Shown in pieces: positions 19,091 through 63,404 of a DNA stretch of 64,000 nt. The notes below the pieces were generated by a model, which worked only from the letters and a program-made list of their open reading frames with translations, was not told where the DNA came from and did not search any database. Made by a program: the position numbers and the translations under genes. The first letter of the stretch is position 1. Every line of letters begins with the position of its first letter. The DNA comes from Patescibacteria group bacterium (GTDB taxonomy: Bacteria; Patescibacteriota; Patescibacteriia; Patescibacteriales; UBA12075): the NCBI GenBank assembly GCA_018897195.1, contig JAHILH010000001.1, forward strand, positions 156,565-220,564, in the 5' to 3' direction.

Positions 19091-19101
19091 AAAAAAACTG
19101 T

Positions 19102-31542: not shown

Positions 31543-31614
31543 TGATCCCTAGGAGAATCGAACTCCTGTTATCAGGATGAGAACCTGGTGTCCTAACCAT
31601 TAGACGAAGGGACC
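31543..31614 (-). tRNA. tRNA-Glu (anticodon CUC), no encoded CCA
   Basis: The reverse complement GGTCCCTTCGTCTAATGGTTAGGACACCAGGTTCTCATCCTGATAACAGGAGTTCGATTCTCCTAGGGATCA folds as a cloverleaf. Anticodon loop is TTCTCAT. T-arm is AGGAG-TTCGATT-CTCCT. Confidence 0.9.
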
Positions 31615-31676: not shown

Positions 31677-31748
31677 TGATCCCTAGGGGAATCGAACCCC
31701 TATTATCAGGATGAAAACCTGGTGTCCTAACCACTAGACGAAGGGACC
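31677..31748 (-). tRNA. tRNA-Glu (anticodon UUC), no encoded CCA
   Basis: The reverse complement GGTCCCTTCGTCTAGTGGTTAGGACACCAGGTTTTCATCCTGATAATAGGGGTTCGATTCCCCTAGGGATCA folds as a cloverleaf. Anticodon loop is TTTTCAT. Confidence 0.9.
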
Positions 31749-40010: not shown

Positions 40011-41747
40011 ATGTTTTCAAAAAAGCAATTAAAAAATATTCTTTTGAGTGCGGAAATTATTTCCGCTGATGACTTTGAGAAGTTATCAGCGGAGGCAATT
40101 AGCCTTGGTAAGCCACTTGAGAATTTATTAGTCGAAAAGAAAATTACTTCTTCTTTGGCTATATGTGAAAATGCGGCCAGCTATTACAAGCTGCCCTTTA
40201 TTGATTTAAAAAACCAAAATATTCGTAAAGATGTTTTATTTTCAATTCCAGAACCAATTGCTTCTGCGCACGAAATTATTGCCTTTGACTCTGATGGCAA
40301 GGATTTAAAACTAGCCTTGATAAATCCGGAAAATATCCAGATTATTGAATTTATTAAGAAAAAAACTGGTCTAAATCCAGTGCTTTATGTTACCACCTCT
40401 GACAGTATTCATGACACTTTAAAGCAATATCACAAAAGTCTAAAGGCGGAATTCGATTATTTGTCCGATGAACAAAAAGAGGATCTTTCAGAATTGGATA
40501 TAAACAAAGATTTGAAGAAATTGGCTCAAGATGTGCCCGTGGTTCGTATCGTGGATACTTTATTGGAGTACTCCATTATTGAGGGCGCGAGTGATATTCA
40601 CATTGAGCCAGAAGAAAAAGACGTATTAGTTCGCTATCGTATCGATGGTATTTTGAAAAATGTAATGGTTTTACCCAAGAATGTTCAATCTGGCATTGTG
40701 GCGCGTATCAAAATTTTGGCGAATTTAAAAGTAGACGAACATCGCCTACCACAAGATGGTCGTTTTAAGATTTCCAACGCTGAACATAAGATGGCTTTTC
40801 GTGTTTCGATTTTACCAACCTTTGATGGCGAAAAAATTGTAATGCGTTTGTTAAATGAAAAAGGACAGATTTTAACCTTGGAACAGCTTGGTTTTCAGCG
40901 TAGCGCCTTAGAGGCTTTGAAGCGTAATATTACTAAGCCACACGGTGTGCTTTTGGTGACCGGACCAACGGGGTCAGGAAAAACCACTACCCTATATACA
41001 ATCTTAAGTATTCTTAATCAACCAGAGGTTAATATTTCTACCATTGAGGACCCAATTGAGTATCGTATGCCCCATGTGAACCAGTCACAGGTTAATGCCA
41101 AGATTGGTTACACCTTTGCTCAGGGCTTGCGTGCTTTTTTGCGGCAAGATCCGAATATTATTATGGTGGGAGAAATCCGTGATGAAGAAACGGCTGAAAT
41201 TGCGACGCATGCGGCTATGACTGGTCATATGGTGTTATCTACTATTCATACCAACAGCGCTGCGGCCACTTTGCCTCGTTTAACTGAAATGGGTATCCCC
41301 TCTTTTTTGATTGCAACGACGGCCAATGCTATTATTGCGCAACGTTTGGTGCGAAAAATATGTCCAAATTGTATTCAAAGTTTTAATCTGGATAAAGAAG
41401 TTATTGATAAACTCGAAAAACAATTAAATATCGGAAGTATTTTAACGACACTGGAACAGGAGAAGCAAATTTTGAGCGCTAAAAAGGGGTTATCGCAATT
41501 GCTGTTTTATCGCGGTAAGGGTTGTAAGCAATGTAATAATACTGGCTATAAGGGGCGTATTGGTATTTATGAAATATTAGAAAACACTCCGGATATATCA
41601 TCATTAATTGTTAAAAATGCCAGTGCTCATGAGATTCATCAAAAGGCCATCGAGCAAGGCATGTTGACGATTGTTGAAGATGGTTTTATTAAGGCGAAAA
41701 ACGGCGTGACAACAATTGAAGAGGTGTTGCGCGTGACAAAGGAATAG
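40011..41747 (+). CDS. pilB: type IV pilus assembly ATPase (GspE/PilB family)
   Basis: N-terminal GspE-N-like domain. Walker A GPTGSGKTTT, GEIRDEETA, and tetracysteine CPNC...CKQC. Confidence 0.92.
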   Translation: MFSKKQLKNILLSAEIISADDFEKLSAEAISLGKPLENLLVEKKITSSLAICENAASYYKLPFIDLKNQNIRKDVLFSIPEPIASAHEIIAFDSDGKDLKLALINPENIQIIEFIKKKTGLNPVLYVTTSDSIHDTLKQYHKSLKAEFDYLSDEQKEDLSELDINKDLKKLAQDVPVVRIVDTLLEYSIIEGASDIHIEPEEKDVLVRYRIDGILKNVMVLPKNVQSGIVARIKILANLKVDEHRLPQDGRFKISNAEHKMAFRVSILPTFDGEKIVMRLLNEKGQILTLEQLGFQRSALEALKRNITKPHGVLLVTGPTGSGKTTTLYTILSILNQPEVNISTIEDPIEYRMPHVNQSQVNAKIGYTFAQGLRAFLRQDPNIIMVGEIRDEETAEIATHAAMTGHMVLSTIHTNSAAATLPRLTEMGIPSFLIATTANAIIAQRLVRKICPNCIQSFNLDKEVIDKLEKQLNIGSILTTLEQEKQILSAKKGLSQLLFYRGKGCKQCNNTGYKGRIGIYEILENTPDISSLIVKNASAHEIHQKAIEQGMLTIVEDGFIKAKNGVTTIEEVLRVTKE

Positions 41748-41777: not shown

Positions 41778-42914
41778 ATGGTAGTTAATTTTAGTTCGCA
41801 GGACTATGGCGCAAATGATGTCAAAAAAGAAGAGGTGCCTATAATGGATAAAATTAATAATTTTCTTCTGACTCTGACTCCAATCGCACTAAAAGAAAAA
41901 TTATTTTTTGTGCAACACTTGGGATTGATGCTTAAGTCCGGCATTTCTCTTGCGCGTGCGCTTAAGACTTTAGCTGACCAATCCGAGAATAAACATTTTA
42001 ATCAAATTTTAACTGATGTGGCTAGCCGAGTTGAAAAAGGCTCAAGTTTTGCTGAATCCTTAGAGGATTATCGTAAAGTTTTTGGTGATCTTTTTTTGAG
42101 TATGATCGACGCCGGAGAATTGTCAGGTAAACTAGAGGAGGTGCTTAGACAACTTTTTGTGCAGATGAAAAAAGAGCATCAATTAGTTTCTAAGGTGAAA
42201 GGGGCCATGACGTATCCGGCAGTTATCCTATTTGCGATGTTCGGTATCGGTGCTTTTATGTTAATCGTGGTGGTTCCAAAAATTACAGCCATGTTTGATG
42301 AGTTACATGCTGAATTGCCACTAGCCACAAAAATTTTGATTGGGGCCAGTGATGCTATTAGAAATAATGGCATAATGGTTGTGATTGGATTGGGAATTTT
42401 TATTACAGCTTGGGTCAAGATATTAAAAACCTATAAAGGAAGATACATTCTTCAGACAATCTTGTTGCGGGCACCGGTTTTTGGCACAATTATCAAAAAA
42501 ATTAATCTCGCGCGTTTCGCGAGAAATATTAGTTCTCTTTTGAAGACTGATATTATGATTGTAAAATGCTTCCAAATCACTGCCAACGTTCTGGGAAATT
42601 TACATTATAAGGCGGCCTTGAATGATATGTCGCAAGTAATCAAGCAGGGCGGTAAATTAAATGAAGCTGTTAAGGCCTATCCCCATCTTTTTACTCCAGT
42701 AGTTGTGCAAATGATTGCCATTGGCGAAGAGACTGGTGAGCTTGATAATATTTTAATGGAATTAGCTGAGTTTTACGAAGATGAAGTTGATCAGATTATG
42801 GAAAATTTACCAACTATTATTGAGCCCTTATTAATTCTTGCACTTGGCCTAGGCGTTGGTGGCGTGGCCGTGGCTATCGTGATGCCAATGTTTGCCATTT
42901 CATCGGCAATATAA
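41778..42914 (+). CDS. pilC: type IV pilus platform protein (GspF/PilC family)
   Basis: Two T2SS-F repeats (SGISLARAL..., GEETGELD) and three TM segments. An alternative start is ATG 41844. Confidence 0.9.
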   Translation: MVVNFSSQDYGANDVKKEEVPIMDKINNFLLTLTPIALKEKLFFVQHLGLMLKSGISLARALKTLADQSENKHFNQILTDVASRVEKGSSFAESLEDYRKVFGDLFLSMIDAGELSGKLEEVLRQLFVQMKKEHQLVSKVKGAMTYPAVILFAMFGIGAFMLIVVVPKITAMFDELHAELPLATKILIGASDAIRNNGIMVVIGLGIFITAWVKILKTYKGRYILQTILLRAPVFGTIIKKINLARFARNISSLLKTDIMIVKCFQITANVLGNLHYKAALNDMSQVIKQGGKLNEAVKAYPHLFTPVVVQMIAIGEETGELDNILMELAEFYEDEVDQIMENLPTIIEPLLILALGLGVGGVAVAIVMPMFAISSAI

Positions 42915-42919: not shown

Positions 42920-45900
42920 ATGAAATTATCCCCCCAAAAAAATCAAAAAGGCTTTACATTAATTGAGGTTACAGTCTCTTTGGCTATAATCGCTGTTTTG
43001 ATTTTGGGAGTTTACAGCTTGGTAATCTTGTCTCTTAGAATAACGGCTGACAACAAAAACTATGTATCAGCGATTGAGATTGCCAATCAAAAAATGGAGC
43101 AGATTCGCAATATGCCCTATGATAATGTCGGAACTATTGACAGCAGTATTGTCTCTGGCACAATTCCTCAAATAGTTACCATTGAAAGAGGTGGAGTTTT
43201 TACGGTTACAACAAACGTCACCATGCCAAACGATCCATACGATGATATTGCTGGAGTAGATACCATCCCTAATGACTATAAGCAGGCCACGGTTAAAGTT
43301 GGTTGGGAAAGTAGTTATGGTCCAAAAAGTATATCTGTGTTTTCTAAAATAGTTTCCAAGACCAAAGAAGTGGCCGCTGGCTATGGCTTGCTAGAGCTTC
43401 ATTCTGTTGATTCTAATGGATTACCCGTTCCTAATGCTAATGTCTATATAGATAATGATATTTTAGTTCCTGCCATGCATGAACATACGACAGTTACTGA
43501 TGCAAACGGCATATTAAACATGGCGCTTCTTAAGTCATTTCAAGGTTATAAGATTACGGTTAGCAAGGCTGGTTATAGCACTGATTATTCTCTCGACCCC
43601 GCTTCCGGTTTAACACCAATTCATCTCTCAATTACTGAGGGTAATAAAACAGCTGAAAGTTTTTCAATAGATAAGCTAGCTACACTTATTGTTAAAACAT
43701 ATTCTGATAATATTCCTGCAAATTGGATGGTCAATAAGGCGACGTCGACAAGTAGTAAGTCAAAAACAGCTATTTCAAAAGATGATTCCGGAAATATTTA
43801 TTTCATTTGGCAAGATGTAGTTGATGCGACAAACGCAGGTGTTTTTATTCAAAAATATAACTCTGCCAAGACCAGACAATGGCTAAATGATGTTAGAGTG
43901 GAAACCTCAAGTAATGAAACTAATCCTAGTATTGCCACAAGCAAGAACGGCACTTCTTATGTTGTTTGGCAGGACAGTTCAATAGCTTTAAAATCATTGG
44001 CAAAAGCTCCAGTTGAATCAAGTCTAGCCAGTAATGATGACTTGACTAGCCCCAGCAGTGATAAGGTTCTAAACGTGAATAAAATTGTTAAAAGTTCCTT
44101 GCTGAGACCGCTAAGTAATGTTGGCAGACTTGCTGAATTGTATTTTAATAAAATAAAAGTTTTTTTATTTCATGATATTAGAAATAATTCACATATTTTT
44201 GTTGCTAAAATTAAAAAATATTTTAGCAATAACAGTGCTGTTGCCGCCGGTACAGTTACAATTGTACAGACAAAAATAGGCGCAAACGTAAACAATTCAC
44301 CAACCTTGTCAGCTACCTTTGATAGTGCCCCACTTAGCGGTAATGTTATTATTGCCATTGCAAGTCATCGGCATAGTTTCACTTCATTTATTACGCCAGC
44401 TGGTTTTACAAAATCAGTTTATAGCGATGTCTCAGCTAGTCTGGATGCTGGTATCTGGCATAAAGTTGCGGGCGCTAGCGAATCAAAAACAGTCTCTATT
44501 ACAAATTCTGGCGATATAAATGGCGGTGTCTTGATGCTTATGGAGGTAAGTGGACTCGAAACCGCTAGCTTGCTTGATGTTGTCTCAATGAATTATCAAG
44601 GTGACTTGTCTAAAACTGGCAACACCGACTTGACTGCCACTTCAACAAATAACAGTTTTGGCGTCGCGGCAGTGTCTTTTGGTGACGACGCTTTTACGGC
44701 ACCAACTTCGGCAAATTGGCAATCATCATCATCTAATGTGTATACTCAGAAAATGTGGGATGATTGGAATTCTGGAAGCAAAGGGTCCTTGAGTGTGGCG
44801 ACGATAAATATAAATGCTGGTGTTCCACAAAAGGCTACGCTTGGGCCCTTGCTAGGTGGTAGCAATACGTATAGAAATAGCGTCTTGGCAATTTTTAAAA
44901 TTAAAAATGACACCTCTGTTAGTGCAATAAATTCTCAAACAGCCTCTATCACCTTCCCTGCCACAAACCAATATATTGGTGGTTCTTTTGCAATTACGGC
45001 AAGTTCTACAAACTCTGTCAGTAGTATAAAAATAAGTGAAGATGGAACTGTTGATGCGCAAAATAATTTAGAAAATATTCACTTGTATTATGATATAGAC
45101 TCTAGTTTTCCATATGACTGCGTTAGTGAGTCGTACGCTGGTACCGATTTGCAATTTGGTACTAATACTGGTTTTGATAGTTACGATGGTGTGGCAATAT
45201 TTACAAAAGTTGGTGGTGTGACAATCGATACCACACATAGTCTTTGTGTCTATACAGTTCTAGATGTTAAAAGTTCGTCTAATAAAAATGACACCGTTGA
45301 AATTAAAATAAGTAATCCGGCAACAGATGTTATAATTAGCGCTGGTCTTATGACTCCTGGATCTACTGTCGCCATTGCGGGAACAACCATTCTTTTAAAA
45401 CCAGCTGAATTGCAGCAGATTCATTATAGATTTCGCAATGATGATGGTGATGAAAGCACTGCTTCTTGGAGTAAGACCGAAGATAATAATTTGATAACCA
45501 AAATAGGGGCTCCGGTTAGACTGAGATTTGCCGTTACCAATGCAGGCAGCTTTGATTCCGCTGCTACTAGTTATCAGATTCAGTACGGCGAAAAAGATAC
45601 TACCTGTGCTGCAATTTCAGTCTGGAGTTCATTGCCGGCAAAATGGAAAATGTACAACTCGAGCAATATTAACGATGGTGATGCAACGACTGATTCTACT
45701 GGTATTACCAATGAAAATACTAATTTTAAGGCTAGTCAAATAAAAGATACTGGTAGTCAAACTTCAGCACTGACACTCACCTCTTCTGATTTTACCGAAA
45801 TTGAATATTCTCTTGAGGCTGATGGTAGTGCATCTGAAAAAACTTATTGCTTCCGCTTGACCAATGCTGGCGCAACCACCCAGTTTAACTATATTGAATA

Positions 45901-47020
45901 TCCCGAGATTAGCATTGTCGGCGATGATAATATTTATATAAAAAGTTTTAATAATGACGGGAGTGAACACTGGGGCGTGAAAAGAGTTCATTTGGATTCG
46001 TCTAGTGTTAATCAGCAAAATCCGCAAATTGCTATCACGGAAAATTTTGGCACGGCCACAACTACGGTTATTTGGGAAGATAGTCGCAATGGCAATATTG
46101 ATATTTACGCGCAAAGCTTTAATGAGGGCGGCAACCGCTTATGGAGTAGTGATTTGAGAATCACTAGTTCTTCAACAAATGAAATAAATCCCGTGATTGA
46201 TATCGACGCAGAAGACAATATTTATATCAGCTGGGAGGAACAAGGCGATATTTATTTACAAAAATTTGATATTGATGGTAATAAGTTGTGGCTTGAGCCT
46301 ATTAATATCACTAATTCAGGTGTTGCAGATTTTCGACCAAGAATTAGCCATGCTTCAACAACTGCCCTTTTATCCTGGACTGCATCAGAATCATCTATTT
46401 ATAATACTTATTTAGCCAAATTTGATAGCACAGGTAGCTTAATTTGGAAAGAACGGGCAAATGTAGAGTCTAGTGAAAAAAACCAATTCTACCCGACTAT
46501 TGCTAGTAATGATTCTAATGTTTATGTAACATGGACTGATGATCGTAATGGTAATAACAACATCTATGCTCAAAAATTTAATCTCAGCGGTGTTGCAGAG
46601 TGGACCAATGATCAAAAAATAACCGACGATATAGACTCGTCAGATCAAAATTCACCTGCTATTATCATAAGTTCAGATAATAAAATTTTTAGTGCTTGGC
46701 ACGATGAAAGAAGTTTATCCAAGGAGATCTATGCAACCGAAATTAGCGAACCAGGAACACCAACGGTGGTGGCCAATGTCCCCTTGGTTATAACCGGCTC
46801 AAGATTGATATACAAAGATCCATTGCAGTATAAATATAGTCAAACGCATGCTACTGACGGTGGTGGTGACTTGTCTTTGCAGTTGGAGTGGGATGCATCA
46901 TATCAAATAGTTGCAAGCAGCACCTTGACAGGGCTAATTGTGACTGAATGCCGCCCCCTTAACTGCCCTATTAGTATTAGCGCTGATGAAATAAAAACAA
47001 TTGAAATTTATGTTAAATAA
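42920..47020 (+). CDS. giant prepilin-like protein (1,366 aa) with CarboxypepD_reg-like segment and propeller-type repeats
   Basis: MKLSPQKNQKG/FTLIEVTVSLAIIAVLILGVYSL is a class III signal. The repeat signature recurs: VIWEDSRNGNIDIYAQSF, VTWTDDRNGNNNIYAQKF, SAWHDERSLSKEIYATEI. Confidence 0.85.
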   Translation: MKLSPQKNQKGFTLIEVTVSLAIIAVLILGVYSLVILSLRITADNKNYVSAIEIANQKMEQIRNMPYDNVGTIDSSIVSGTIPQIVTIERGGVFTVTTNVTMPNDPYDDIAGVDTIPNDYKQATVKVGWESSYGPKSISVFSKIVSKTKEVAAGYGLLELHSVDSNGLPVPNANVYIDNDILVPAMHEHTTVTDANGILNMALLKSFQGYKITVSKAGYSTDYSLDPASGLTPIHLSITEGNKTAESFSIDKLATLIVKTYSDNIPANWMVNKATSTSSKSKTAISKDDSGNIYFIWQDVVDATNAGVFIQKYNSAKTRQWLNDVRVETSSNETNPSIATSKNGTSYVVWQDSSIALKSLAKAPVESSLASNDDLTSPSSDKVLNVNKIVKSSLLRPLSNVGRLAELYFNKIKVFLFHDIRNNSHIFVAKIKKYFSNNSAVAAGTVTIVQTKIGANVNNSPTLSATFDSAPLSGNVIIAIASHRHSFTSFITPAGFTKSVYSDVSASLDAGIWHKVAGASESKTVSITNSGDINGGVLMLMEVSGLETASLLDVVSMNYQGDLSKTGNTDLTATSTNNSFGVAAVSFGDDAFTAPTSANWQSSSSNVYTQKMWDDWNSGSKGSLSVATININAGVPQKATLGPLLGGSNTYRNSVLAIFKIKNDTSVSAINSQTASITFPATNQYIGGSFAITASSTNSVSSIKISEDGTVDAQNNLENIHLYYDIDSSFPYDCVSESYAGTDLQFGTNTGFDSYDGVAIFTKVGGVTIDTTHSLCVYTVLDVKSSSNKNDTVEIKISNPATDVIISAGLMTPGSTVAIAGTTILLKPAELQQIHYRFRNDDGDESTASWSKTEDNNLITKIGAPVRLRFAVTNAGSFDSAATSYQIQYGEKDTTCAAISVWSSLPAKWKMYNSSNINDGDATTDSTGITNENTNFKASQIKDTGSQTSALTLTSSDFTEIEYSLEADGSASEKTYCFRLTNAGATTQFNYIEYPEISIVGDDNIYIKSFNNDGSEHWGVKRVHLDSSSVNQQNPQIAITENFGTATTTVIWEDSRNGNIDIYAQSFNEGGNRLWSSDLRITSSSTNEINPVIDIDAEDNIYISWEEQGDIYLQKFDIDGNKLWLEPINITNSGVADFRPRISHASTTALLSWTASESSIYNTYLAKFDSTGSLIWKERANVESSEKNQFYPTIASNDSNVYVTWTDDRNGNNNIYAQKFNLSGVAEWTNDQKITDDIDSSDQNSPAIIISSDNKIFSAWHDERSLSKEIYATEISEPGTPTVVANVPLVITGSRLIYKDPLQYKYSQTHATDGGGDLSLQLEWDASYQIVASSTLTGLIVTECRPLNCPISISADEIKTIEIYVK

Positions 47021-47075
47021 AATTTTAAAAAAGCCATTGTTTTTTTATATGGCTGGGCATTCATTTTCCTCAACT

Positions 47076-47651
47076 ATGAAAAATAAAACCGGTTTCACTA
47101 TGATTGAATTAATTGTCGTGATTGCAGTTATGGGTGTCATCTCAACCATGGTTTTAAATTTTACCGTCATGGGTCTGAGAGCTTCTCGTTTTGAGGCTGA
47201 ACAAGCTGAAGCGGTCAAACAAGCCAGAGATGCAATGAACATTATGAAGACTGAAATTAGAGGCGCAAATAATTCCGCCCATGGTGATTACCCGATTTCT
47301 GTAATTACTAATCAAGAGTTTGCTTTTTTCTCCGACATCGACAAGGATGATGTGTATGAAAAAGTTAGATACTACCTCGACGGCTTGGAGTTAAAAAAAG
47401 CTGTCATTGAGCCCAATATCTCTAATTTGTATACAGACCCACCAGTCATTACGGTTATTGCTAATTACGTCAATAATCAAACCGAAAATGTCTTTAACTA
47501 CTATACCTCTAATTATACTATTGCTGGGGATATTAACGAGGTTAGATTAATTAATATGAATTTAAAAATCAACGTTACTCCGGAAATATCACCGGCTGAT
47601 ATTTATGTCGAAACTGATGTTGCTCTCCGTAATCTTAAATCAAATTTATAA
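47076..47651 (+). CDS. minor (pseudo)pilin
   Basis: MKNKTG/FTMIELIVVIAVMGVISTMVL is a class III signal. I chose ATG 47076 over the track start at 47001, which overlaps the previous gene. Confidence 0.75.
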   Translation: MKNKTGFTMIELIVVIAVMGVISTMVLNFTVMGLRASRFEAEQAEAVKQARDAMNIMKTEIRGANNSAHGDYPISVITNQEFAFFSDIDKDDVYEKVRYYLDGLELKKAVIEPNISNLYTDPPVITVIANYVNNQTENVFNYYTSNYTIAGDINEVRLINMNLKINVTPEISPADIYVETDVALRNLKSNL

Positions 47652-47655
47652 GTTA

Positions 47656-49245
47656 ATGAATATGCAGAAACAAAAAATAAAACAATTCATGAATAACAGC
47701 AGAGGCTCGATGTTAATCCTTGCCTTGGTTTTGACCGGTCTTTTTATGGCCATGACTATGGGCGCCATCGGCCTAGCTCTTTTACAACAAAAATTAAATA
47801 TGATCAAAATTGCCAGCAATCAAGCCGTTCATATTGCTGAGGCTGGTGTTAATTATTATCGCTGGGTGCTATATCATGATCCAGAAGAGTATTGCAATAA
47901 AGAGGCTTGTCGTGCCTCGACCACTCCATATGGGCCATACGCATATACGGACGCTAGTGGCAGCATTACAGGTCATTATGAGTTATATATTACCCCACCA
48001 GCTATTAATGCCTCAACTATCGTGACAGTTAAATCAATAGGGTGGGAAGATGGCCACCCAAGCGTTAAAAGAGTCATTGAGGTTAAACTAGGAAAACCCT
48101 CTTGGTCTAATTTTGCAACTTTATCTAATAATGATATTACATTTGGTGCTGATACTGAGGTTTGGGGGCCTATTCATTCAAATGGCGGTGTTCGATTTGA
48201 TGGAATAGCTCATAATATTATTACCTCTTCCAAGGATTATTATACCGACCCAGATCATGCCAGTAGTGATGTTTTTGCGTTTGGAGTGCATACTCACAAT
48301 GGTGCTGGTAATGGTACTTATAATACAACCGAAGAAGGAAATCCCGGACTAAGTCTTCCTGCGCCAGATCAAAGTGCAACTTTTCTTTCTGGTCGCGAAT
48401 TCCCCGTCCCAATCGTGAGCTTTAGTTTATTAGATAACTATATAAGTGAGACATATATTAAAGCTTCTTCAAGCGGAATGATTATTGATCCTAGAAGTGC
48501 TGGGATAGCTGATCCTGAATCAGAGCCAACTCTTCGTAATTGCATTAGCTCTACCTGCGACGAGGGATTCCATATTACACTAAAAACAAATAATACTTTT
48601 GAAATTAGGGATGTCTCCGCTGTTTTCCCGGATTGGAGTAATAATCCCAGTGCAGACTCTAAAAGCCTTAGTATAAAAACTGAAGGAGCTGCTAAAACTT
48701 TTAGCATTCCGGAGAACGGAATAATTTTTGTCAAAAATCATGTCTGGATTGATGGAAAAATAAACGGAAGCAAGGTGAACGTTTTAGCATTTTTCGAACC
48801 GTTTACGGGCACTGTTAACACTGCGAGTATAATCACTAATAAGGATTTACTTTATACAAATTATGACGGCACAGACTCCATTGGACTTATCGCTCAAGGC
48901 GATATTGGCCCTGGTTTGTATAGCGAAGGTGCTTTGTCGGGAACGGAGGATCAAATGGAATTAAGAATTGATGCAGCTATGATTGCTAAGACTGGTCGAG
49001 TCGGTCGTTTGTATTACAAGCACAGTAGCGGCGATGAGTATCCCAAGAGACAAACGATAACTATTTATGGGTCTTTGGCAACAAACCAGCGCTATGGTTT
49101 TAGTTATTCTTGTGGCACCAGTGATCAATGGTGTTCTGGATATAAAATTAGGAATATAATTTATGATAATAATCTTACGCTGGATCCCCCGGCGAATTTT
49201 CCTACCACGGGAGAGTATACTTTTGTTTCTTGGAAAGAAGATTAA
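47656..49245 (+). CDS. large PilX-N-terminal-like pilus-associated protein
   Basis: NNSRGSMLILALVLTGLFMAMTMGAIGL resembles the PilX N-terminal hydrophobic segment. About 490 aa of unknown fold follow. The start is placed after the previous stop. Confidence 0.6.
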   Translation: MNMQKQKIKQFMNNSRGSMLILALVLTGLFMAMTMGAIGLALLQQKLNMIKIASNQAVHIAEAGVNYYRWVLYHDPEEYCNKEACRASTTPYGPYAYTDASGSITGHYELYITPPAINASTIVTVKSIGWEDGHPSVKRVIEVKLGKPSWSNFATLSNNDITFGADTEVWGPIHSNGGVRFDGIAHNIITSSKDYYTDPDHASSDVFAFGVHTHNGAGNGTYNTTEEGNPGLSLPAPDQSATFLSGREFPVPIVSFSLLDNYISETYIKASSSGMIIDPRSAGIADPESEPTLRNCISSTCDEGFHITLKTNNTFEIRDVSAVFPDWSNNPSADSKSLSIKTEGAAKTFSIPENGIIFVKNHVWIDGKINGSKVNVLAFFEPFTGTVNTASIITNKDLLYTNYDGTDSIGLIAQGDIGPGLYSEGALSGTEDQMELRIDAAMIAKTGRVGRLYYKHSSGDEYPKRQTITIYGSLATNQRYGFSYSCGTSDQWCSGYKIRNIIYDNNLTLDPPANFPTTGEYTFVSWKED

Positions 49246-49286: not shown

Positions 49287-50435
49287 ATGCTCTCATTCAG
49301 ACAATCAAATTTTCCCATCGGACTTGACATATCAGACACCTCGCTTAAATTAGTTCAATTAAGGAAAAAAACCAACAAAATTAAAATTCAGGCGATGGGA
49401 CGAGTTGAATTGCCTATCGGTACTATTGAAAAAGGTGAAATAAAAAATCAACGTGTTTTTTTGGAATCATTGGAGAAGTTAATTGCTAAGCCAAAATTTG
49501 GCAATATTACCACTAATGAAATTGTTGCATGTTTGCCAGAGTCAAAAACTTACATAGAATTAATCAAGATTGCTAAATCATCAAATCAGATTGAAAATGT
49601 AATAGAGACTGAGATGGAAAAATATTTCCCCATTTCCGCTAATGAATTATTTTATGATTGGCAAATATTTAGTGAAGATAAAAATAACTATAGTGTTTTA
49701 ATCGGCGCTGCCGAGAAAGCTGTAGTAACACAGTATATTGCCATTTTTAATAAAGCCAAGCTTTCAACGGTTGCTTTGGAGATTGAGTCTGTGGCCATTT
49801 GCCGGGCTTTATTGACCGAGGAGTCACCAAATTTCAAAATTAAGCAATTTAAAAATTACCTAATTATTGATATAGGCTACAATCGTACCAATTTAATAGC
49901 CTATTCTGGCAATGCCATTGTTTTTTCAGTAAGCATCCCCGTGTCTGGCAGAGAGATTACAAAAAAAATTGCCGATATTTTAGAAATAAGCGAGGAACAA
50001 GCCGAGAAGGCAAAGATAATTTGCGGTCTTGATGAAACAATTGCCAAGGGTATAATTAAAAAAATTCTTGCTAACACCTTAGACGTTGTTAACAAAAGAA
50101 TTGAGTCTGCTCTAGAATTTTACAATAATAATTATAGTAGCCTTGGGCCGATTAATGAAATAATTTTATCTGGCGGTGGTTCTAATATTAAAGACCTAGA
50201 TAAAATTATTGCAGAAAATATAAAAATCGAAACAAAAAATGGTGATATTTTTACACACCTAGATAGAGAATTTAGTGATAGTTTTTCTAAAAATTTGATA
50301 GAAACCCATGATCTAAAATTAGACAATATCAAGGGGTTAGATGATAAAAAACTTTCAATTAAACAAAGTACCAGCTCTGGATACGCGACAGCTATCGGAC
50401 TGTCATTAAGAAATATATTTATAGCTAATAAATAA
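49287..50435 (+). CDS. pilM: type IV pilus assembly protein PilM (actin-like ATPase fold)
   Basis: PIGLDISDTSLKLVQL, the ILSGGGSNI motif, and position before the pilN/pilO-like genes. Confidence 0.85.
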   Translation: MLSFRQSNFPIGLDISDTSLKLVQLRKKTNKIKIQAMGRVELPIGTIEKGEIKNQRVFLESLEKLIAKPKFGNITTNEIVACLPESKTYIELIKIAKSSNQIENVIETEMEKYFPISANELFYDWQIFSEDKNNYSVLIGAAEKAVVTQYIAIFNKAKLSTVALEIESVAICRALLTEESPNFKIKQFKNYLIIDIGYNRTNLIAYSGNAIVFSVSIPVSGREITKKIADILEISEEQAEKAKIICGLDETIAKGIIKKILANTLDVVNKRIESALEFYNNNYSSLGPINEIILSGGGSNIKDLDKIIAENIKIETKNGDIFTHLDREFSDSFSKNLIETHDLKLDNIKGLDDKKLSIKQSTSSGYATAIGLSLRNIFIANK

Positions 50436-50436
50436 A

Positions 50437-50970
50437 ATGATTACATTAAACATTATCTCGCCAGAATTAAAAAATGAGATCAAATTAAAGTATATTTATC
50501 GGATTATTGGAAAGTCTTTTATCTTGATTGGTGTTTTTTTGGGATTCTATGCGATTATTTTAGTCTCTTCAAGAATTGTTCTCAGTTCTTACTTGAGTGA
50601 AGTTAGTCAGATGAACAGCACTACCAACGAGTCAACTAACAATACGGTTAAGGCGGTTAATGATGTAAATAAAAAATTAAAAGAAGTCGCCGTTATTCAA
50701 AAAGATGAAATAAGTTGGTTAAATCTCTTGGAGTTAATCTCTCAAAATACTTCTAAAGATATCAAATATAATAAAATATCAATGGATAGAAATAATGGGC
50801 TTAGCCTCACTGGGCAATCAAAAACCAGGGATGGCCTGATTAAGATAAAAAAATTCCTCGATGAGTCCGCCTTCCTTTCCGACGTCGACTTCCCTATTAG
50901 CAATTTACTGGAAAAAGAGAATATAAATTTTAATATTAGCGCCAAAATTAATAATTATGAATTTAAATAA
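50437..50970 (+). CDS. pilN: PilN-like bitopic protein
   Basis: 177 aa with a single N-terminal TM. It is start/stop-coupled to pilM. The call rests on position and topology. Confidence 0.55.
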   Translation: MITLNIISPELKNEIKLKYIYRIIGKSFILIGVFLGFYAIILVSSRIVLSSYLSEVSQMNSTTNESTNNTVKAVNDVNKKLKEVAVIQKDEISWLNLLELISQNTSKDIKYNKISMDRNNGLSLTGQSKTRDGLIKIKKFLDESAFLSDVDFPISNLLEKENINFNISAKINNYEFK

Positions 50971-51583
50971 TCAAAAACATTATTCAGCTAAGCAAAAAAT
51001 AACTAATATAATTTTTTTATTTATAGTTTTTTTTGGTGCTTTGTTGTATTTTGCAATTATACCATCAATAGCCGCTATTAATGATCTTGAGGTAAAAATT
51101 ATTAATGAGAAAATAAACAGTGAAAAAAAATATCAAATTGAAAATAACGCCATTAGTCTAAATAAGAAAATAGGTGAAATTGAACCAAGCGTAAAAACTC
51201 TGGAGGAGGTATTTATTAATAAAAACAGAGAATTAGAGTTTATTACCGTTTTGGAAAGTGTTGCGAATAAAAACAATGTAGAGCAAAAAATAAGCCTAAC
51301 CTCTCCAGCGAGTGAAGATAAAACCGTCAAAGCGACAAAAAACAACAGTGCCAATAAAGAGTCTGGAAATAATAACTTGTTTGTGCCAATGACAATAACC
51401 TTAAGCGGTAATTACAAAAATGTAGTGAACTATCTTTCTGAATTACAATCTTTAAAATATTACATCAACATTGATGGATTGGATTTTGTCAGCGGGTCGT
51501 CCAACGGCTCCCTGCCTAATGACAATTCTAGCCGCAATCAAATAATTACTTTAAATATAGTGGCAAAAACTTATTGGAAATAA
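50957..51583 (+). CDS. PilO-like bitopic protein
   Basis: 208 aa with an N-terminal TM and coiled coil. It overlaps the pilN end by 14 nt. The call rests on position and topology only. Confidence 0.45.
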   Translation: MNLNNQKHYSAKQKITNIIFLFIVFFGALLYFAIIPSIAAINDLEVKIINEKINSEKKYQIENNAISLNKKIGEIEPSVKTLEEVFINKNRELEFITVLESVANKNNVEQKISLTSPASEDKTVKATKNNSANKESGNNNLFVPMTITLSGNYKNVVNYLSELQSLKYYINIDGLDFVSGSSNGSLPNDNSSRNQIITLNIVAKTYWK

Positions 51584-51584: not shown

Positions 51585-51854
51585 ATGCAGTTAAAATTAA
51601 TAATTTCAAAAAACAACATCGTGAATCTGATAAATCCTATCATATACGCAATAAATATTATTGTTATTATTATTGTAATCATCTTTATTAATAAAAATGT
51701 TTATCAGACAATAGCAATCCAAGGCCAAGACTTAAGAGATCGGATTAATGAATCGCCAAATGATATAAACATTGAAGAGTTTAATAAAGTGGTAGATAAA
51801 ATAAATTACCGCAAAACTAAACAGCAATCAATTACGATTGGAGAAATTTTTTAA
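51585..51854 (+). CDS. 89-aa single-TM protein ending the pilus operon
   Basis: Its start lies 1 nt after the pilO-like stop. TM is IIYAINIIVIIIVIIFI. No family recognised. Confidence 0.4.
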   Translation: MQLKLIISKNNIVNLINPIIYAINIIVIIIVIIFINKNVYQTIAIQGQDLRDRINESPNDINIEEFNKVVDKINYRKTKQQSITIGEIF

Positions 51855-55709: not shown

Positions 55710-57824
55710 TTATAATTCAATTGCTGCGACTGAAACTCCGCCATTAAAACTTTCCTCATAGGCATAAAAAGAGGAAACCAGCGTACCGTTGTCGTCGAAA
55801 GCTCTGACATGTGGAGCGCCACCAGGCCCAGTCCCTGTGATAATTTCTTTTTGACCATCATAATCAATATCTGCCAAGGAAATATTTACACCACCCTTGA
55901 ATTGCTCAGCATAGGCAAAAAATTGGCCATGTAGCTTGAAGTGATTGTCAAAGATTTTTATTTGCGGTCCACCACCCTTTCCTGGCGCTGTTATAATCAT
56001 TGAACGGGCATTTCGGACGCTATCATTGAATGCTCCAACCGCGACGTTTACACCGCCTCTGAATTTTTTATCATAAGCAAAGTATTGTCCTTTTAACTGT
56101 CCGTTGTTGTTAAAAATACGTACCTGTGGTCCACCGCCGACGCCAGCACCTGTTACTATTTCAGATATACCATCACCATCAAGGTCGCCAGCTGCGACAT
56201 TTACACCACCTCTGAAATTTTTGTCATAGGCAAAAAATTGCCTTTTTAATTCGCCTTTATGATTAAAAACTCTAATGTGCGGTCCGCCACCAATACCAGC
56301 GCCGACTACAATCTCCGAAAATCCATCACCATCAATATCTGAAACTACTACATTTACACCACCTTTAAACTTCTTATCAAAAGCATAAAATTCTTTTTTT
56401 AATTTACCATCACTGCTAAAGATTTTTACATGAGGACTGTTTCCAGTATTTGCGCTAACGATAATTTCAGATAAACCATCTCCGTTGACATCGCCGGTTG
56501 CGACATTGACGCCACCCTTGAAATTTTGATCAAAGGCAAAAAATTTATTTAAAATTTTTCCATCTTTGTCTGTCAATAATATCTCACCATTTTTTCCCGA
56601 TAGCGGGCCAATAACTAAATCAACATTCTTTTTTTGAGAAATATCAAGTACGTTATTAATGGCAGCGTAAACGTTTAGTCTGCCGCTCCCAAGTTTACCG
56701 ATATAGTTTGGGTTTAAATTATCAATATTATCTGTATTTTTTAGCAATGCGTTAACCACCTCACTTCTTGATAGGTGCGGATTGGCTGCCTCAATCAAAG
56801 CAACTGCTCCGGAAACCATAGGCACAGCCATTGAAGTTCCAGCCCAGTAGCCATCATAATTATTGTTAAAAACAGTTGAGCCTGGTTTATTTACAGCAGT
56901 ACTAAAAATACTAATACCTGGTGCGGAAATATCAATGCACCTACTGCCATAGCCTGAAAAATTTGCTTTTTGATCAAGTGAATCAGTTGCCGCAACACCG
57001 ATTACCATGTTTTCACCATTTTTACCATCGTAGCAAACGGGATATAGTGGCTCTTTGTCTAAAAAATGGCTACTATCACCTTCCATGTCATTGCCAGCTG
57101 CGGCCACGACCACAATACCGGCGTTATAGGCTCGCCTAATAGCGTCTTCTAGGATTGAGCTGTATCCAGCGCCAACAAAGCTTAAGTTGATAATATCAGC
57201 TCCGTTTTTAATTGCATAATCAATCGCCCTAACAACGCTCTTTGTATTTCCCTCTCCCTTGCCATTTAAAACACGCAGGGGCATAATCTTGGCATTCCAG
57301 GCAACACCAGTAATGCCTAAGAAGTTATTACCACCGGCAGCGGCAACACCTGCTACAACTGTTCCGTGCATGATGCCGTCCTTGGTATAGCCTTCGTCGT
57401 ATTTAGGATTTGGGTCTGAGTTGTTTTCAACGAAGTCCCAACCATTATAATCATCAATAAACCCATTACCATCATCATCTCTATTATTTTTGGGCACCTC
57501 GCCGGAATTAATCCAGATATTATCTTTAAGGTCTGGGTGATTAATTTGTACCCCTGAATCAATAACGGCAATAATAATACTACTAGCATCCCAATGCTCG
57601 TCCCATGTTTCCACAGCCTTAATTCTTTTTAAATACCACTGCTTATCAAAATAAGGGTCGGACGGAACAGTGCTGGCCCTATAGATGTTAACATCGTCTT
57701 TTTCGGTAAACTTAATCTCAAAATCTGCTGTTTTATTAGCTAAAACCGCAGAAGGATAAAAAAAGTTACCGGCAATGCTAGCCAGCAAAAATAAAATAAA
57801 AAAAGATGATATTTTTTTTCTCAT
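55710..57824 (-). CDS. secreted S8 subtilisin-like protease with C-terminal FG-GAP-like repeats
   Basis: Signal peptide from ATG 57824 (MRKKISSFFILFLLASIAG). Catalytic triad motifs AVIDSGV, HGTVVAG and GTSMAVP. About 5.5 repeats of roughly 50 aa follow (F.AYDKKFRGGVNVA.GD.DGDG.SEI..G.G.GGGP.V.IF). Confidence 0.88.
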   Translation of the reverse strand: MRKKISSFFILFLLASIAGNFFYPSAVLANKTADFEIKFTEKDDVNIYRASTVPSDPYFDKQWYLKRIKAVETWDEHWDASSIIIAVIDSGVQINHPDLKDNIWINSGEVPKNNRDDDGNGFIDDYNGWDFVENNSDPNPKYDEGYTKDGIMHGTVVAGVAAAGGNNFLGITGVAWNAKIMPLRVLNGKGEGNTKSVVRAIDYAIKNGADIINLSFVGAGYSSILEDAIRRAYNAGIVVVAAAGNDMEGDSSHFLDKEPLYPVCYDGKNGENMVIGVAATDSLDQKANFSGYGSRCIDISAPGISIFSTAVNKPGSTVFNNNYDGYWAGTSMAVPMVSGAVALIEAANPHLSRSEVVNALLKNTDNIDNLNPNYIGKLGSGRLNVYAAINNVLDISQKKNVDLVIGPLSGKNGEILLTDKDGKILNKFFAFDQNFKGGVNVATGDVNGDGLSEIIVSANTGNSPHVKIFSSDGKLKKEFYAFDKKFKGGVNVVVSDIDGDGFSEIVVGAGIGGGPHIRVFNHKGELKRQFFAYDKNFRGGVNVAAGDLDGDGISEIVTGAGVGGGPQVRIFNNNGQLKGQYFAYDKKFRGGVNVAVGAFNDSVRNARSMIITAPGKGGGPQIKIFDNHFKLHGQFFAYAEQFKGGVNISLADIDYDGQKEIITGTGPGGAPHVRAFDDNGTLVSSFYAYEESFNGGVSVAAIEL

Positions 57825-57878
57825 AACATCTTTATTATAACACATTAAAAAAGTATTTGGCAATGTTGTTTTTGTTAT

Positions 57879-63236: not shown

Positions 63237-63306
63237 CCTCACCCCGCCCTCTTTATAATTAGTCGGACGAGGATTACGTTAACCCTCTCCTGCAAAGGAG
63301 AGGGAT
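63237..63306 (+). repeat. GC-rich intergenic repeat, copy B
   Basis: cctcaccccgccctctttataattagtcggacgaggattacgttaaccctctcc (63237-63290) matches copy A at 49 of 54 positions. The hairpin CCCTCTCC-tgcaaa-GGAGAGGG ends at 63304. Confidence 0.6.
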
Positions 63307-63370
63307 CTATTACCCAACGCCGATTATAAATAAAAAAATTGTTTTTTAAAGGAAGTAATATCTACTAGTT

Positions 63371-63404
63371 CCCTCGCCCCGCCGGGAGAGGGTTAGGGTG
63401 AGGG
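63371..63404 (-). repeat. inverted short form of the GC-rich repeat (copy C)
   Basis: ccctcgccccgccgggagagggttagggtgaggg. Its reverse complement resembles copy A with the internal segment of about 35 nt removed. Confidence 0.5.

What the first reader, a model, noticed from the sequence alone, without database searches (positions are those of the whole stretch)
42920..47020. 1,366-aa protein with a textbook prepilin N-terminus fused to propeller-type repeats, a candidate pilus-displayed adhesin
The N-terminus MKLSPQKNQKG/FTLIEVTVSLAIIAVLILGVYSL has all the class III signal features: a short basic leader, Gly-1, Phe+1, Glu+5 and about 20 hydrophobic residues. Ordinary pilins and pseudopilins are about 120-250 aa, yet this protein continues for about 1,330 more residues. 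It has a CarboxypepD_reg-like segment (LELHSVDSNGLPVPNANVYIDND...GYKITVSKAGYS, nt ~43380-43590). It also has one short block (nt ~43770-43985) and one long block (nt ~45920-46750) of a degenerate repeat. The repeat reads FIWQDVVDATNAGVFIQKY, YVVWQDSS, VIWEDSRNGNIDIYAQSF, ISWEEQGDIYLQKF, LSWTASESSIYNTYLAKF, VTWTDDRNGNNNIYAQKF and SAWHDERSLSKEIYATEI. A strand-W-x-D ... IYxQ/K-F pattern is what beta-propeller blades look like. The gene lies directly after pilB-pilC and before two more prepilin-like genes. This supports the hypothesis that a propeller module is mounted on the pilus, a plausible host- or substrate-recognition device.
Basis: partly seen in the sequence, partly recalled or inferred. 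Interest (0 to 1): 0.8.

Follow-up and report, generated by a model that had tools for sequence, protein, structure and literature searches.

The report
Giant modular pilin with split propeller
This gene from an ultrasmall (Patescibacteria/CPR) bacterium encodes a type IV pilus subunit carrying a 1,200-residue cargo, most likely a pilus-tip adhesin for grabbing a host; this kind of "modular pilin" is already known, so it is an unusually elaborate new example, not a new principle.

Summary
ORF 42920-47020 encodes 1,366 aa with a canonical prepilin signal (N_methyl 37 bits against a cutoff of 21.2). It also has a transthyretin-like (CarboxypepD_reg) domain and WxD...IYxQKF repeats.

Predicted structures (pLDDT 74 and 85) give a pilin fold (50-residue helix plus 4 strands), a beta-sandwich and a beta-propeller (Foldseek prob 1.0). 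The closest solved relative by sequence is the seven-bladed CylK propeller (E 3e-11).

The two repeat blocks are one seven-bladed propeller. Blade 2 is cut between WQDSS and GDDNIYIK by a 646-aa insert: a disordered linker and three beta domains (D1-D3). Orthologs of about 750 aa at the same operon position lack the insert exactly.
- D1 is a swappable cassette (14-19% identity where the flanking domains keep 40-68%).
- D2 and D3 belong to a large unnamed repeat-module family (1,312 cluster representatives).

About 45 full-length homologs keep G/F-T-L-x-E, so this is not a chimera. In about 40 CPR loci it is the first of three minor-pilin-like genes between pilBC and pilMNO.

It most likely sits in the pilus-tip complex as an adhesin. 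Pilus display and ligand binding are inferred, not shown. Modular pilins (Raynaud 2021) and a propeller-bearing, host-binding minor pilin (TM7x PilX2) are published, so this is a new member of a known kind.

The parts
40011..41747 (+). pilB, the pilus extension ATPase
   Evidence: Pfam T2SSE E 4.5e-131 and MshEN
41778..42914 (+). pilC, the platform protein
   Evidence: Pfam T2SSF E 1.6e-57, two stretches
42920..47020 (+). Giant modular minor pilin, 1,366 aa (identical to NCBI MBU4216903.1)
42920..42952 (+). Class III leader peptide MKLSPQKNQKG (res 1-11), ending in Gly-1
   Evidence: N_methyl and TIGR02532 above their cutoffs; conserved across the family
42953..43369 (+). Pilin module. Res 12-63 form the alpha-1 helix (Phe+1, Glu+5). 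Res 64-150 form a small 4-stranded head.
   Evidence: AF2 model: helix 14-63, strands 85-89, 93-101, 121-131, 134-144, pLDDT about 79-94. Weak PilV/GspI HMM hits over res 9-75, below cutoffs.
43370..43684 (+). Transthyretin-like (CarboxypepD_reg) beta-sandwich, res about 151-255
   Evidence: Pfam PF13620 E 2e-6; Foldseek hits to the carboxypeptidase D/N C-terminal domain at rmsd 2.0-2.6 A
43742..43984 (+). Propeller blade 1 and the first half of blade 2 (res 275-355)
   Evidence: Repeat HMM hits at 275-323 (hmm 2-49) and 329-353 (hmm 3-27); strands modelled at pLDDT 85-95
43985..44251 (+). Start of the insert: a low-complexity or helical linker (res 356-444)
   Evidence: pLDDT below 50 in both models; 21% mean family identity
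44252..44890 (+). Insert domain D1 (res about 445-657), an all-beta variable cassette
   Evidence: pLDDT about 86-92. Identity to P0013, P0018, P0041-45 is 14-19% while flanking domains stay at 40-68%; P0048 carries a third, 343-aa type. No Pfam or NCBIfam hit.
44891..45415 (+). Insert domain D2 (res about 658-832), an all-beta repeat module with a conserved Cys pair (C734, C776)
   Evidence: It matches repeated modules in hundreds of large proteins.
45416..45919 (+). Insert domain D3 (res about 833-1000), an all-beta module of HYRFRNDDG...YCFRLTNAG type with a conserved Cys pair (C896, C977)
45920..46774 (+). Second half of blade 2 and blades 3-7 of the propeller (res 1001-1285)
   Evidence: Repeat HMM hits at 1001-1018 (hmm 30-47) plus five full units; CylK profile match E 3e-11; Foldseek propeller hits
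46775..47020 (+). C-terminal beta-sandwich (res 1286-1366) and the stop codon
   Evidence: Eight strands at pLDDT about 85-92; present in both short and long orthologs; no family hit
47001..47651 (+). Second minor pilin (216-aa ORF). The likely start is M26 at nt 47076, giving MKNKTG/FTMIELIVV.
   Evidence: N_methyl E 4.9e-7; motif scan; conserved at this position in about 35 loci
47605..49245 (+). Third pilin-like protein, of PilX/GspK style, with no Glu5. The likely start is nt 47659.
   Evidence: The N-terminus reads RGSMLILALVLTGLFMAM; no Pfam or NCBIfam hit; conserved at this position
49287..51583 (+). pilM, pilN and pilO, the alignment subcomplex
   Evidence: PilM_2 E 7e-39; PilN E 9e-4 (19.7 bits, below its 22.8 cutoff); PilO E 6e-6

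Best explanation
The gene encodes a modular type IV minor pilin. Shown or directly predicted: a canonical class III signal, a small pilin module (a 50-residue alpha-1 helix plus a 4-stranded head), a transthyretin-like spacer, a seven-bladed CylK/SBBP-like beta-propeller, and a C-terminal beta-sandwich. Blade 2 of the propeller is interrupted by a 646-aa insert made of a flexible linker, a variable domain D1 and two stalk-type repeat modules, D2 and D3. Inferred mechanism: a prepilin peptidase encoded elsewhere in the genome cleaves after Gly11 and methylates Phe12. The alpha-1 helix holds the protein in the membrane. Together with the products of the next two genes (a 216-aa pilin and a roughly 528-aa PilX/GspK-like protein lacking Glu5), it forms the priming complex on PilC/PilMNO. 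That complex ends up at the tip when PilB polymerises the major pilin beneath it. Patescibacteria have no outer membrane, and no secretin gene lies in the cluster, so a 150-kDa cargo can be carried outward. The propeller and the insert arm, with D1 as the exchangeable specificity element, then bind a surface ligand, probably a glycan, on a host or partner cell. In this way the protein combines in one chain the roles that PilV and PilY1 play separately in diderm T4aP.
For: Signal: N_methyl 37 bits against a cutoff of 21.2, and TIGR02532 above its cutoff. Gly-1, Phe+1 and Glu+5 are conserved across 52 homologs. Pilin fold predicted at pLDDT about 79-94. Propeller: model pLDDT 85.4, Foldseek prob 1.0 to propellers including CylK 7roo at rmsd 4.3 A over 324 columns, and family profile against CylK at E 3e-11. 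Seven repeat units with blade 2 split: HMM positions 3-27 lie at res 329-353 and positions 30-47 at res 1001-1018, and deleting 356-1001 in silico restores one 36-bit unit. Natural short orthologs read ...VVWSDNSV-GDENIYIV... with 0 aa where the long forms carry 631-646 aa. Operon position: pilB-pilC-[this gene]-pilin-PilX-like-pilMNO, conserved in L001, L002 and about 40 genome loci from Falkowbacteria, Komeilibacteria, Moraniibacteria, Saccharibacteria and Paceibacterota; the first pilin ranges from 440 to 1,415 aa. Extracellular character: invariant Cys pairs in D2 and D3. D1 swapping: 14-19% identity against 40-68% in flanking domains, and the D1 types are scattered on the backbone tree. 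Precedents: modular pilins act as tip adhesins (PMC8179133), and deleting the propeller-bearing minor pilin PilX2 of TM7x halves host binding (PMC11623550).
Against: No experiment or proteomic data show that the protein is processed, polymerised or tip-located. No prepilin peptidase, major pilin or PilT gene lies in the window. Assignment to the PilV/GspI type rests on HMM hits below the curated cutoffs and on gene order. Foldseek of the N-terminal model did not list solved pilins in its top 50, because the hits were dominated by the transthyretin-like domain. I could not read the model coordinates, so ring closure between blades 1-2 and 3-7 is inferred from sequence and orthologs, not measured. 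No ligand is known. The closest solved propellers are enzymes (CylK, sialidases), not lectins.
Confidence: 0.65

Rival explanations
1. The protein is a membrane-anchored surface protein that uses the class III signal only for export and anchoring. It is never polymerised into a filament, like the archaeal 'bindosome' sugar-binding proteins that carry class III signals (from my own knowledge of Sulfolobus). The cargo would then sit at the cell surface.
For: The cargo is about 1,200 aa, eight times the pilin module. No evidence of polymerisation exists. The D1-like, D2 and D3 modules also occur in non-pilin surface proteins that have ordinary signal or TM N-termini, for example P0175, P0101 and P0077.
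Against: The position between pilBC and pilMNO is strictly conserved, together with two further pilin-like genes, in about 40 loci. Glu+5, which matters for filament assembly rather than for mere anchoring, is conserved. The alpha-1C motif ANQKMEQIRN is conserved like a packing surface.
Confidence: 0.15
2. The protein is a pilus-borne enzyme. The propeller, with or without the insert, is a glycoside hydrolase, lyase or transferase that remodels the host envelope and is not a passive adhesin.
For: The top Foldseek hits are GH33 sialidases, GH43 and GH-like propellers, and the enzyme CylK. CylK is also the only significant PDB sequence relative.
Against: There is no hit to BNR/sialidase, GH43 or any catalytic family in Pfam or NCBIfam. 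Sialidases have six blades; this protein has seven repeat units. TM-scores to the enzymes are low (TMt 0.24-0.56) and sequence identity is 7-15%. The residues conserved in each blade (W, D, R, G, IY) look structural, one set per blade.
Confidence: 0.1
3. The filament is a competence or secretion pseudopilus and the cargo serves DNA capture or substrate pushing, not host adhesion.
For: Patescibacteria are naturally competent and depend on uptake of external building blocks (PMC10633639, abstract listed). Some modular pilins bind DNA, such as ComZ, cited in PMC8179133.
Against: No DNA-binding family or obviously basic domain was detected. The all-beta propeller, sandwich and stalk architecture with a variable distal cassette is typical of adhesins and receptor-binding proteins. 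No com genes are adjacent.
Confidence: 0.05
4. The ORF is an assembly chimera or a fusion artefact of separate genes.
For: The only support is its unusual length.
Against: An identical protein is found in several NCBI records. About 45 collinear full-length homologs lie on independent contigs at 37-79% identity. Composition is uniform across the gene. No DNA repeats occur at the domain junctions.
Confidence: 0.01

Closest known systems
Modular type IV pilins (Streptococcus sanguinis PilB/PilC; survey in Raynaud et al. 2021, PMC8179133)
   Same: Both have an N-terminal class III signal and a small pilin module with a functional non-pilus module grafted on. Both are minor pilins proposed to be tip-exposed adhesins. 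The survey lists N_methyl + PF13620 among the 15 commonest architectures and gives CPR examples, including Falkowbacteria.
   Different: The cargo here is about 1,200 aa in six folded domains, against one vWA or lectin module. The survey's 'most extreme' case was 860 aa. The propeller with a nested three-domain insert is not among the architectures quoted in the passages I read, and most of this cargo has no InterPro or Pfam signature.
PilX2 of Nanosynbacter lyticus TM7x (Saccharibacteria), PMC11623550
   Same: It is a Patescibacterial T4P minor pilin carrying a heptabladed beta-propeller. Its deletion roughly halves host binding, and it is proposed to be the tip adhesin or lectin.
   Different: The PilX2 propeller has RCC1 repeats and is C-terminal and uninterrupted, and PilX2 lacks a predicted PilD signal. 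The present protein has a canonical signal, an SBBP/CylK-like propeller (no RCC1 hit), a 646-aa insert and a transthyretin-like spacer. It occupies the first (PilV-like) slot, not the PilX slot.
PilY1/PilC tip adhesin of diderm T4aP with the FimU-PilVWX priming complex
   Same: A seven-bladed beta-propeller adhesin sits at the pilus tip together with a set of minor pilins that prime assembly. The minor-pilin gene order V-W-X is comparable (PMC8179133 discussion; PMC7541494, listed).
   Different: PilY1 is not a pilin; it docks non-covalently onto the minor pilins. Here the propeller is covalently fused to the pilin. There is no match to the PilY1/PilC propeller family in Pfam.
CylK C-terminal seven-bladed beta-propeller / SBBP repeat proteins (PF06739, TIGR04275, LipL53 family)
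   Same: CylK is the only significant PDB sequence relative (E 3e-11 over profile positions 1050-1180) and a good fold match (7roo, rmsd 4.3 A over 324 columns). Weak SBBP and beta_prop_Msarc repeat hits occur. Both have seven blades (PMC8916777).
   Different: CylK is a cytoplasmic Friedel-Crafts alkylating enzyme fused to a Ca-binding beta-roll. Here the propeller is extracellular pilin cargo with a nested insert. The curated cutoffs of the SBBP models are not reached.
GspI-GspJ-GspK pseudopilus tip complex of the T2SS
   Same: Three consecutive minor (pseudo)pilin genes. The last one lacks Glu5 and is the largest ordinary one. The first gives weak GspI/PilV HMM hits.
   Different: The hits are far below the equivalog cutoffs, GspI is about 100-120 aa with no cargo, and no T2SS secretin or other gsp genes are present.

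Membership tests
Type IV pilin (class III signal, IPR012902/PF07963) | A short hydrophilic leader ending in Gly-1, followed by about 20 hydrophobic residues with Glu at +5, and an HMM score above the curated cutoff | tested here: met
   MKLSPQKNQKG/FTLIEVTVSLAIIAVLILGVYSL; PF07963 37 bits against 21.2; TIGR02532 29.6 against 16.3; conserved in homologs
Type IV pilin (class III signal, IPR012902/PF07963) | Lollipop fold: an extended alpha-1 helix of about 50 residues packed on an antiparallel beta-sheet | tested here: met
   AF2 model: helix 14-63 and four strands between 85 and 144, pLDDT 79-94. This is a prediction only. Foldseek against PDB did not list pilins in its top 50.
Type IV pilin (class III signal, IPR012902/PF07963) | Encoded with, and assembled by, T4P machinery (PilB, PilC, PilMNO) | tested here: met
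   The gene lies between pilBC and pilMNO, and this position is conserved in about 40 loci. Assembly itself was not tested.
Type IV pilin (class III signal, IPR012902/PF07963) | Cleavage and N-methylation by a prepilin peptidase, and incorporation into filaments | not testable with these tools
   No Peptidase_A24 gene was found among the window ORFs scanned.
Modular pilin (sensu Raynaud et al. 2021) | An N-terminal pilin module plus at least one extra module not specific to T4P biology | tested here: met
   CarboxypepD_reg-like domain, propeller, D1-D3 and C-terminal sandwich; definition taken from PMC8179133
Modular pilin (sensu Raynaud et al. 2021) | The extra module has a direct role in a pilus-mediated function such as adhesion | not testable with these tools
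   This needs binding assays or genetics.
PilV / GspI core minor pilin | A score above the equivalog cutoff of TIGR02523 (PilV) or TIGR01707 (GspI) | tested here: not met
   28.4 bits against 52.2, and 22.1 against 44.35. The matches cover only res 9-75. Gene order (first of three) is compatible but not diagnostic.
SBBP / CylK-like seven-bladed beta-propeller | Seven homologous four-stranded repeat units | tested here: met
   Seven units by a repeat HMM, one of them split by the insert. Short orthologs have seven contiguous units. Strand pattern in the model.
SBBP / CylK-like seven-bladed beta-propeller | Propeller fold and sequence relationship to a solved member | tested here: met
   Foldseek prob 1.0 to many propellers, CylK 7roo at rmsd 4.3 A; profile against CylK at E 3e-11
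SBBP / CylK-like seven-bladed beta-propeller | Pfam PF06739 or NCBIfam SBBP models at their curated cutoff | tested here: not met
   No PF06739 hit for the window protein. NF047494 scores 31 bits against 400, and TIGR04275 scores 31.4 against 85. The ortholog P0051 has only sub-threshold SBBP and PD40 hits.
SBBP / CylK-like seven-bladed beta-propeller | Ring closure: blades 1-2 pack against blades 3-7 in three dimensions | tested here: inconclusive
   Model coordinates and PAE were not readable with these tools. Closure is inferred.
PilY1/PilC tip adhesin | A C-terminal PilY1/PilC-type propeller domain (IPR008707/PF05567), and the protein is not itself a pilin | tested here: not met
   No such Pfam hit at E <= 0.1, and the protein has a class III signal. 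The resemblance is functional only.
TM7x PilX2-type propeller pilin | An RCC1-repeat heptabladed propeller at the C-terminus and a non-canonical signal | tested here: not met
   No RCC1 hit, a canonical signal and a different operon slot. No direct sequence comparison with PilX2 was made, because its sequence was not at hand.
GH33 sialidase | A six-bladed propeller with BNR/Asp-box repeats and a catalytic Arg triad, Tyr and Glu | tested here: not met
   Only fold-level hits (TMt 0.24-0.36, 7-10% identity); no BNR or sialidase family hit; seven repeat units, not six. Catalytic residues were not examined.

The most novel reading that the evidence does not exclude
The 646-aa insert is an exchangeable host-range arm, not mere decoration. 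It springs from a propeller loop, with D2-D3 as a stalk built from a very large unnamed surface-repeat family and D1 as a cassette. D1 is swapped by recombination between lineages and occasionally lost whole. This would determine which host cell a Falkowbacteria epibiont can grab, as tail-fibre tip swapping does in phages, and it would give a sequence-readable predictor of host specificity for uncultivated CPR bacteria.
Probability: 0.25. Interest if true: 0.65.

Novelty: new member of a known kind. Interest (0 to 1): 0.45.

Why it matters
Patescibacteria make up a large share of bacterial diversity and most are thought to live attached to other microbes. How they recognise hosts is known only for a few cultivated Saccharibacteria, where type IV pili and a propeller-bearing minor pilin contribute. 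This family gives uncultivated Falkowbacteria-type lineages a concrete candidate recognition device. It sits at a fixed operon position and carries a dispensable insert and a swappable distal domain, so it can be expressed, tested on glycan arrays and tracked in metagenomes. It also flags two abundant beta-module families (D2, D3) that no curated database names. It does not change the principle already established for modular pilins.

Tried and rejected
- Diversity-generating retroelement as the source of D1 variability: no template/variable repeat pair was found in the window. Repeat searches show only weak or unrelated repeats, and no reverse transcriptase appeared among the ORFs I scanned (some window ORFs were never scanned). 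Rejected for this locus.
- Pfam and NCBIfam on the isolated linker, D1, D2, D3 and C-terminal domain at E up to 10 and 1 respectively: no hits apart from a few chance-level matches (E 0.09-0.17).
- phmmer of the whole protein against PDB: nothing significant. Only the family profile found CylK.
- Foldseek of the N-terminal model against PDB was dominated by the transthyretin-like domain and gave no pilin hits.
- Foldseek of the large model against PDB and BFVD was dominated by propellers, so the folds of D1-D3 could not be named. BFVD did include a mycobacteriophage minor tail protein and phage G proteins, but with long, high-rmsd alignments that I do not interpret.
- The afdb50 library was unavailable.
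- Model coordinates are not exposed in /data, so blade contacts could not be measured.
- A Pfam scan of the whole family alignment exceeded the residue limit.
- Searches of the window for PilD, PilT or a major pilin found none.
- The promoter and terminator scan was uninformative.
- The 116-aa antisense ORF 45764-46114 is treated as spurious.

Full report
**1. Observation**

The ORF at 42920-47020 (+) is real. It starts with ATG five bases after the pilC stop and encodes 1,366 aa.

Its N-terminus MKLSPQKNQKG/FTLIEVTVSLAIIAVLILGVYSL scores 37 bits on Pfam N_methyl (cutoff 21.2) and 29.6 bits on TIGR02532 (cutoff 16.3). A motif scan of all six frames of the 64-kb window finds only two class III signals. 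Both sit at the start of ORFs in this operon.

The CarboxypepD_reg segment (res 163-223) is a sub-threshold Pfam hit (28.4 against 32.3 bits). The predicted structure confirms the fold: it superposes on the transthyretin-like domain of carboxypeptidases D and N at 2.0-2.6 A.

The gene's base composition matches its neighbours. There are no DNA-level repeats inside it.

**2. Not a chimera: a conserved family**

- The identical protein is deposited at NCBI (MBU4216903.1 and others) as a 'prepilin-type N-terminal cleavage/methylation domain-containing protein' from Candidatus Parcubacteria/Patescibacteria.
- About 45 collinear homologs of 1,331-1,482 aa, at 37-79% identity, lie on independent contigs.
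- Nearly all of them keep G/F(T,S)L(I,M,V)E. The few that lack it are start miscalls or truncations.

**3. Structure**

Two AlphaFold2 models were built on the family alignment.

- Residues 1-460 (mean pLDDT 74.4) show an alpha-1 helix at 14-63, a four-stranded sheet between 85 and 144, a beta-sandwich at 155-249 and blade strands at 279-351.
- Residues 167-1366 (mean pLDDT 85.4; only 362-444 is low) are all-beta apart from a low-confidence helix in that 362-444 linker and a few 4-7-residue helices.
- Foldseek against PDB returns beta-propellers at probability 1.0: GH33 sialidases, CylK (7roo, rmsd 4.3 A over 324 columns), GH43 and NHL.
- The family profile finds one significant solved relative by sequence, the seven-bladed propeller of CylK (E 3e-11).
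- SBBP-type repeat models give weak, sub-cutoff hits.

**4. The two repeat blocks are one split propeller**

- Six orthologs of about 755 aa align to residues 1-355 and 1002-1367 only.
- At the junction they read, for example, NSFVVWSDNSV-GDENIYIVSLDADGDERW. That is one ordinary blade. The long forms have 631-646 aa between WQDSS(I/V) and (I)GDDNIYIKS.
- A repeat HMM trained only on the five C-terminal units finds a full unit at 275-323. It finds the first half of a unit (HMM positions 3-27) at 329-353 and the second half (positions 30-47) at 1001-1018.
- Deleting 356-1001 in silico restores a single 36-bit unit, giving seven units in all.

So the insert sits in the strand 2 to strand 3 loop of blade 2, the loop that elsewhere carries D-x-R-N-G-N-x-D. 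If the unit's four strands correspond to strands A-D, this is a top-face loop (PMC8916777). That step is inference. I could not read the coordinates, so ring closure was not measured.

**5. The insert (res 356-1001)**

It has four parts:
- a poorly conserved, low-confidence linker with a helix (356-444; 21% mean family identity);
- D1 (about 445-657);
- D2 (about 658-832);
- D3 (about 833-1000).

The three domains are confidently modelled beta domains. None hits Pfam or NCBIfam.

D2 and D3 each keep an invariant Cys pair (C734/C776 and C896/C977), which suggests an extracytoplasmic location.

An exhaustive phmmer search of res 440-1001 against 1.84 billion cluster representatives finds 1,312 proteins at E <= 1e-3. 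Almost all match D2 and/or D3. They include proteins of 3,924 and 6,179 aa with 24 and 21 matched stretches. They also include non-pilin proteins with ordinary signal or TM N-termini made of D2 arrays or alternating D2-D3. D2 and D3 are therefore generic, unnamed stalk modules of large surface proteins.

D1 behaves differently.
- In P0013, P0018 and P0041-45 it is only 14-19% identical to the query, while every other domain of the same proteins stays at 40-68%.
- P0048 carries a third, 343-aa version.
- On a neighbour-joining tree of the shared regions, the D1 types are scattered. Two short forms (P0049, P0050) nest inside the long clade.

This points to cassette exchange and at least one clean loss of the insert. 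The tree has no support values, so this is indicative only.

**6. Context**

The operon reads:
- pilB (T2SSE, E 4.5e-131);
- pilC (T2SSF);
- this gene;
- a 216-aa canonical prepilin (likely start at nt 47076);
- a roughly 528-aa protein whose N-terminus (RGS/MLILALV...) resembles PilX/GspK in lacking Glu5, with no family hit;
- pilM, pilN, pilO.

Upstream on the other strand are mraY, ftsW, murG and a Mur ligase.

The arrangement is the same around the short ortholog P0051 (L001) and around the Falkowbacteria homolog P0013 (L002).

A scan of GTDB species genomes recovered 43 loci. tblastn with the window's Pil proteins shows pilB-pilC-[homolog of this pilin]-[216-like]-[546-like]-pilMNO in about 40 of them. 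These come from Falkowbacteria, Komeilibacteria, Moraniibacteria, Saccharibacteria, Paceibacterota and others. The first pilin ranges from about 440 aa through about 600 and about 750 aa up to 1,415 aa.

The pilin plus transthyretin-like 'carrier' is thus widespread in CPR, and the cargo is what varies. No secretin, PilD, PilT or major pilin gene lies in the window.

**7. Mechanism**

Shown or predicted: the signal, the pilin fold, the split propeller, the insert, and the conserved operon slot.

Inferred:
- processing by a prepilin peptidase encoded elsewhere;
- formation of a three-protein priming complex with the next two gene products;
- a tip location once PilB polymerises the major pilin;
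- outward display made possible by the lack of an outer membrane and secretin in Patescibacteria;
- ligand binding (probably glycan) by the propeller and arm, with D1 as the specificity element.

I put this at 0.65.

Rivals:
- a non-polymerised, bindosome-like surface anchor (0.15);
- a pilus-borne enzyme, suggested by the sialidase and CylK fold hits but unsupported by any catalytic family match (0.10);
- a DNA-uptake or secretion pseudopilus (0.05);
- an assembly artefact (about 0.01, effectively excluded).

**8. Comparison with what is known**

Raynaud et al. 2021 (PMC8179133) defined modular pilins. They showed that S. sanguinis PilB is a tip adhesin, counted more than 1,200 such proteins in 264 architectures, listed N_methyl+PF13620 among the commonest, and cited CPR examples. 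The largest they mention is 860 aa, from Falkowbacteria.

Grossman et al. (PMC11623550) showed that the TM7x minor pilin PilX2 carries a heptabladed RCC1 propeller and that its deletion roughly halves host binding.

PilY1 is the non-pilin propeller adhesin of diderm T4aP.

The present protein works like these and meets the definition of a modular pilin. It is not a PilY1, PilX2, PilV/GspI equivalog or sialidase by the tests run (see the membership table).

**9. Verdict**

Novelty: a new member of a known kind. It is unusually large, has a propeller interrupted by a dispensable three-domain arm, and carries a swappable distal cassette. Interest is moderate (0.45). A specialist would not find it surprising in principle, but it is a useful, testable candidate for host recognition in uncultivated Patescibacteria.

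Noticed in passing
window 44891-45919 (D2, D3); P0056-P0197: D2 and D3 belong to a very large repeat-module family with no Pfam or NCBIfam model. There are 1,312 cluster representatives at E <= 1e-3, including 3,924-aa and 6,179-aa proteins with 24 and 21 matched stretches. Each module has a conserved Cys pair.
   Followed up: partly
window 19023-19091 and 63237-63305; inverted partner 63363-63395: A 69-nt intergenic repeat, 86% identical between two sites 44 kb apart. The second copy is paired with a nearby inverted copy. No Rfam family matches.
   Followed up: no
window 47605-49245 (likely start 47659): A roughly 528-aa protein with a PilX/GspK-like N-terminus lacking Glu5 and no hit in Pfam or NCBIfam. 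It is nevertheless conserved at this operon position in about 35 CPR loci at 29-63% identity.
   Followed up: partly
window 55710-57863 (-): A subtilase (Peptidase_S8) fused to FG-GAP repeats, encoded by 153-nt period DNA repeats. A homologous gene also lies beside the pil cluster in the Falkowbacteria locus L002.
   Followed up: no
window 51585-51854 (+): An 89-aa ORF with a predicted membrane segment directly after pilO. An 89-aa ORF also sits in the same place in L002 (18595-18864), so it may be a further pilus-machine component.
   Followed up: no
L009, L010, L013, L017, L019, L022, L023, L029, L031, L036 (genome contigs): Several MAG records carrying this CPR-type pil operon are titled 'uncultured Gammaproteobacteria' (others Izemoplasmatales or Bdellovibrionales). 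These are probably mislabelled taxonomy in the deposited records.
   Followed up: no
window 31543-31614 and 31677-31748 (-): Two adjacent tRNA genes about 90% identical to each other.
   Followed up: no
window 29477-31390 (-): A 636-aa ORF with no Pfam hit at E <= 1e-5.
   Followed up: no
window 61566-63194 (-) and 8148-10811 (+): An [FeFe]-hydrogenase-like protein (Fe_hyd_lg_C plus 2Fe-2S domains) and an ADP-forming acetyl-CoA synthetase-like protein fused to a GNAT domain. Both fit a fermentative small-genome organism.
   Followed up: no
P0049, P0050 compared with the long-form clade: Two short (insert-less) orthologs nest within the long-form clade on an NJ tree. This implies precise secondary loss of the 646-aa insert, or recombination (no support values).
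   Followed up: partly
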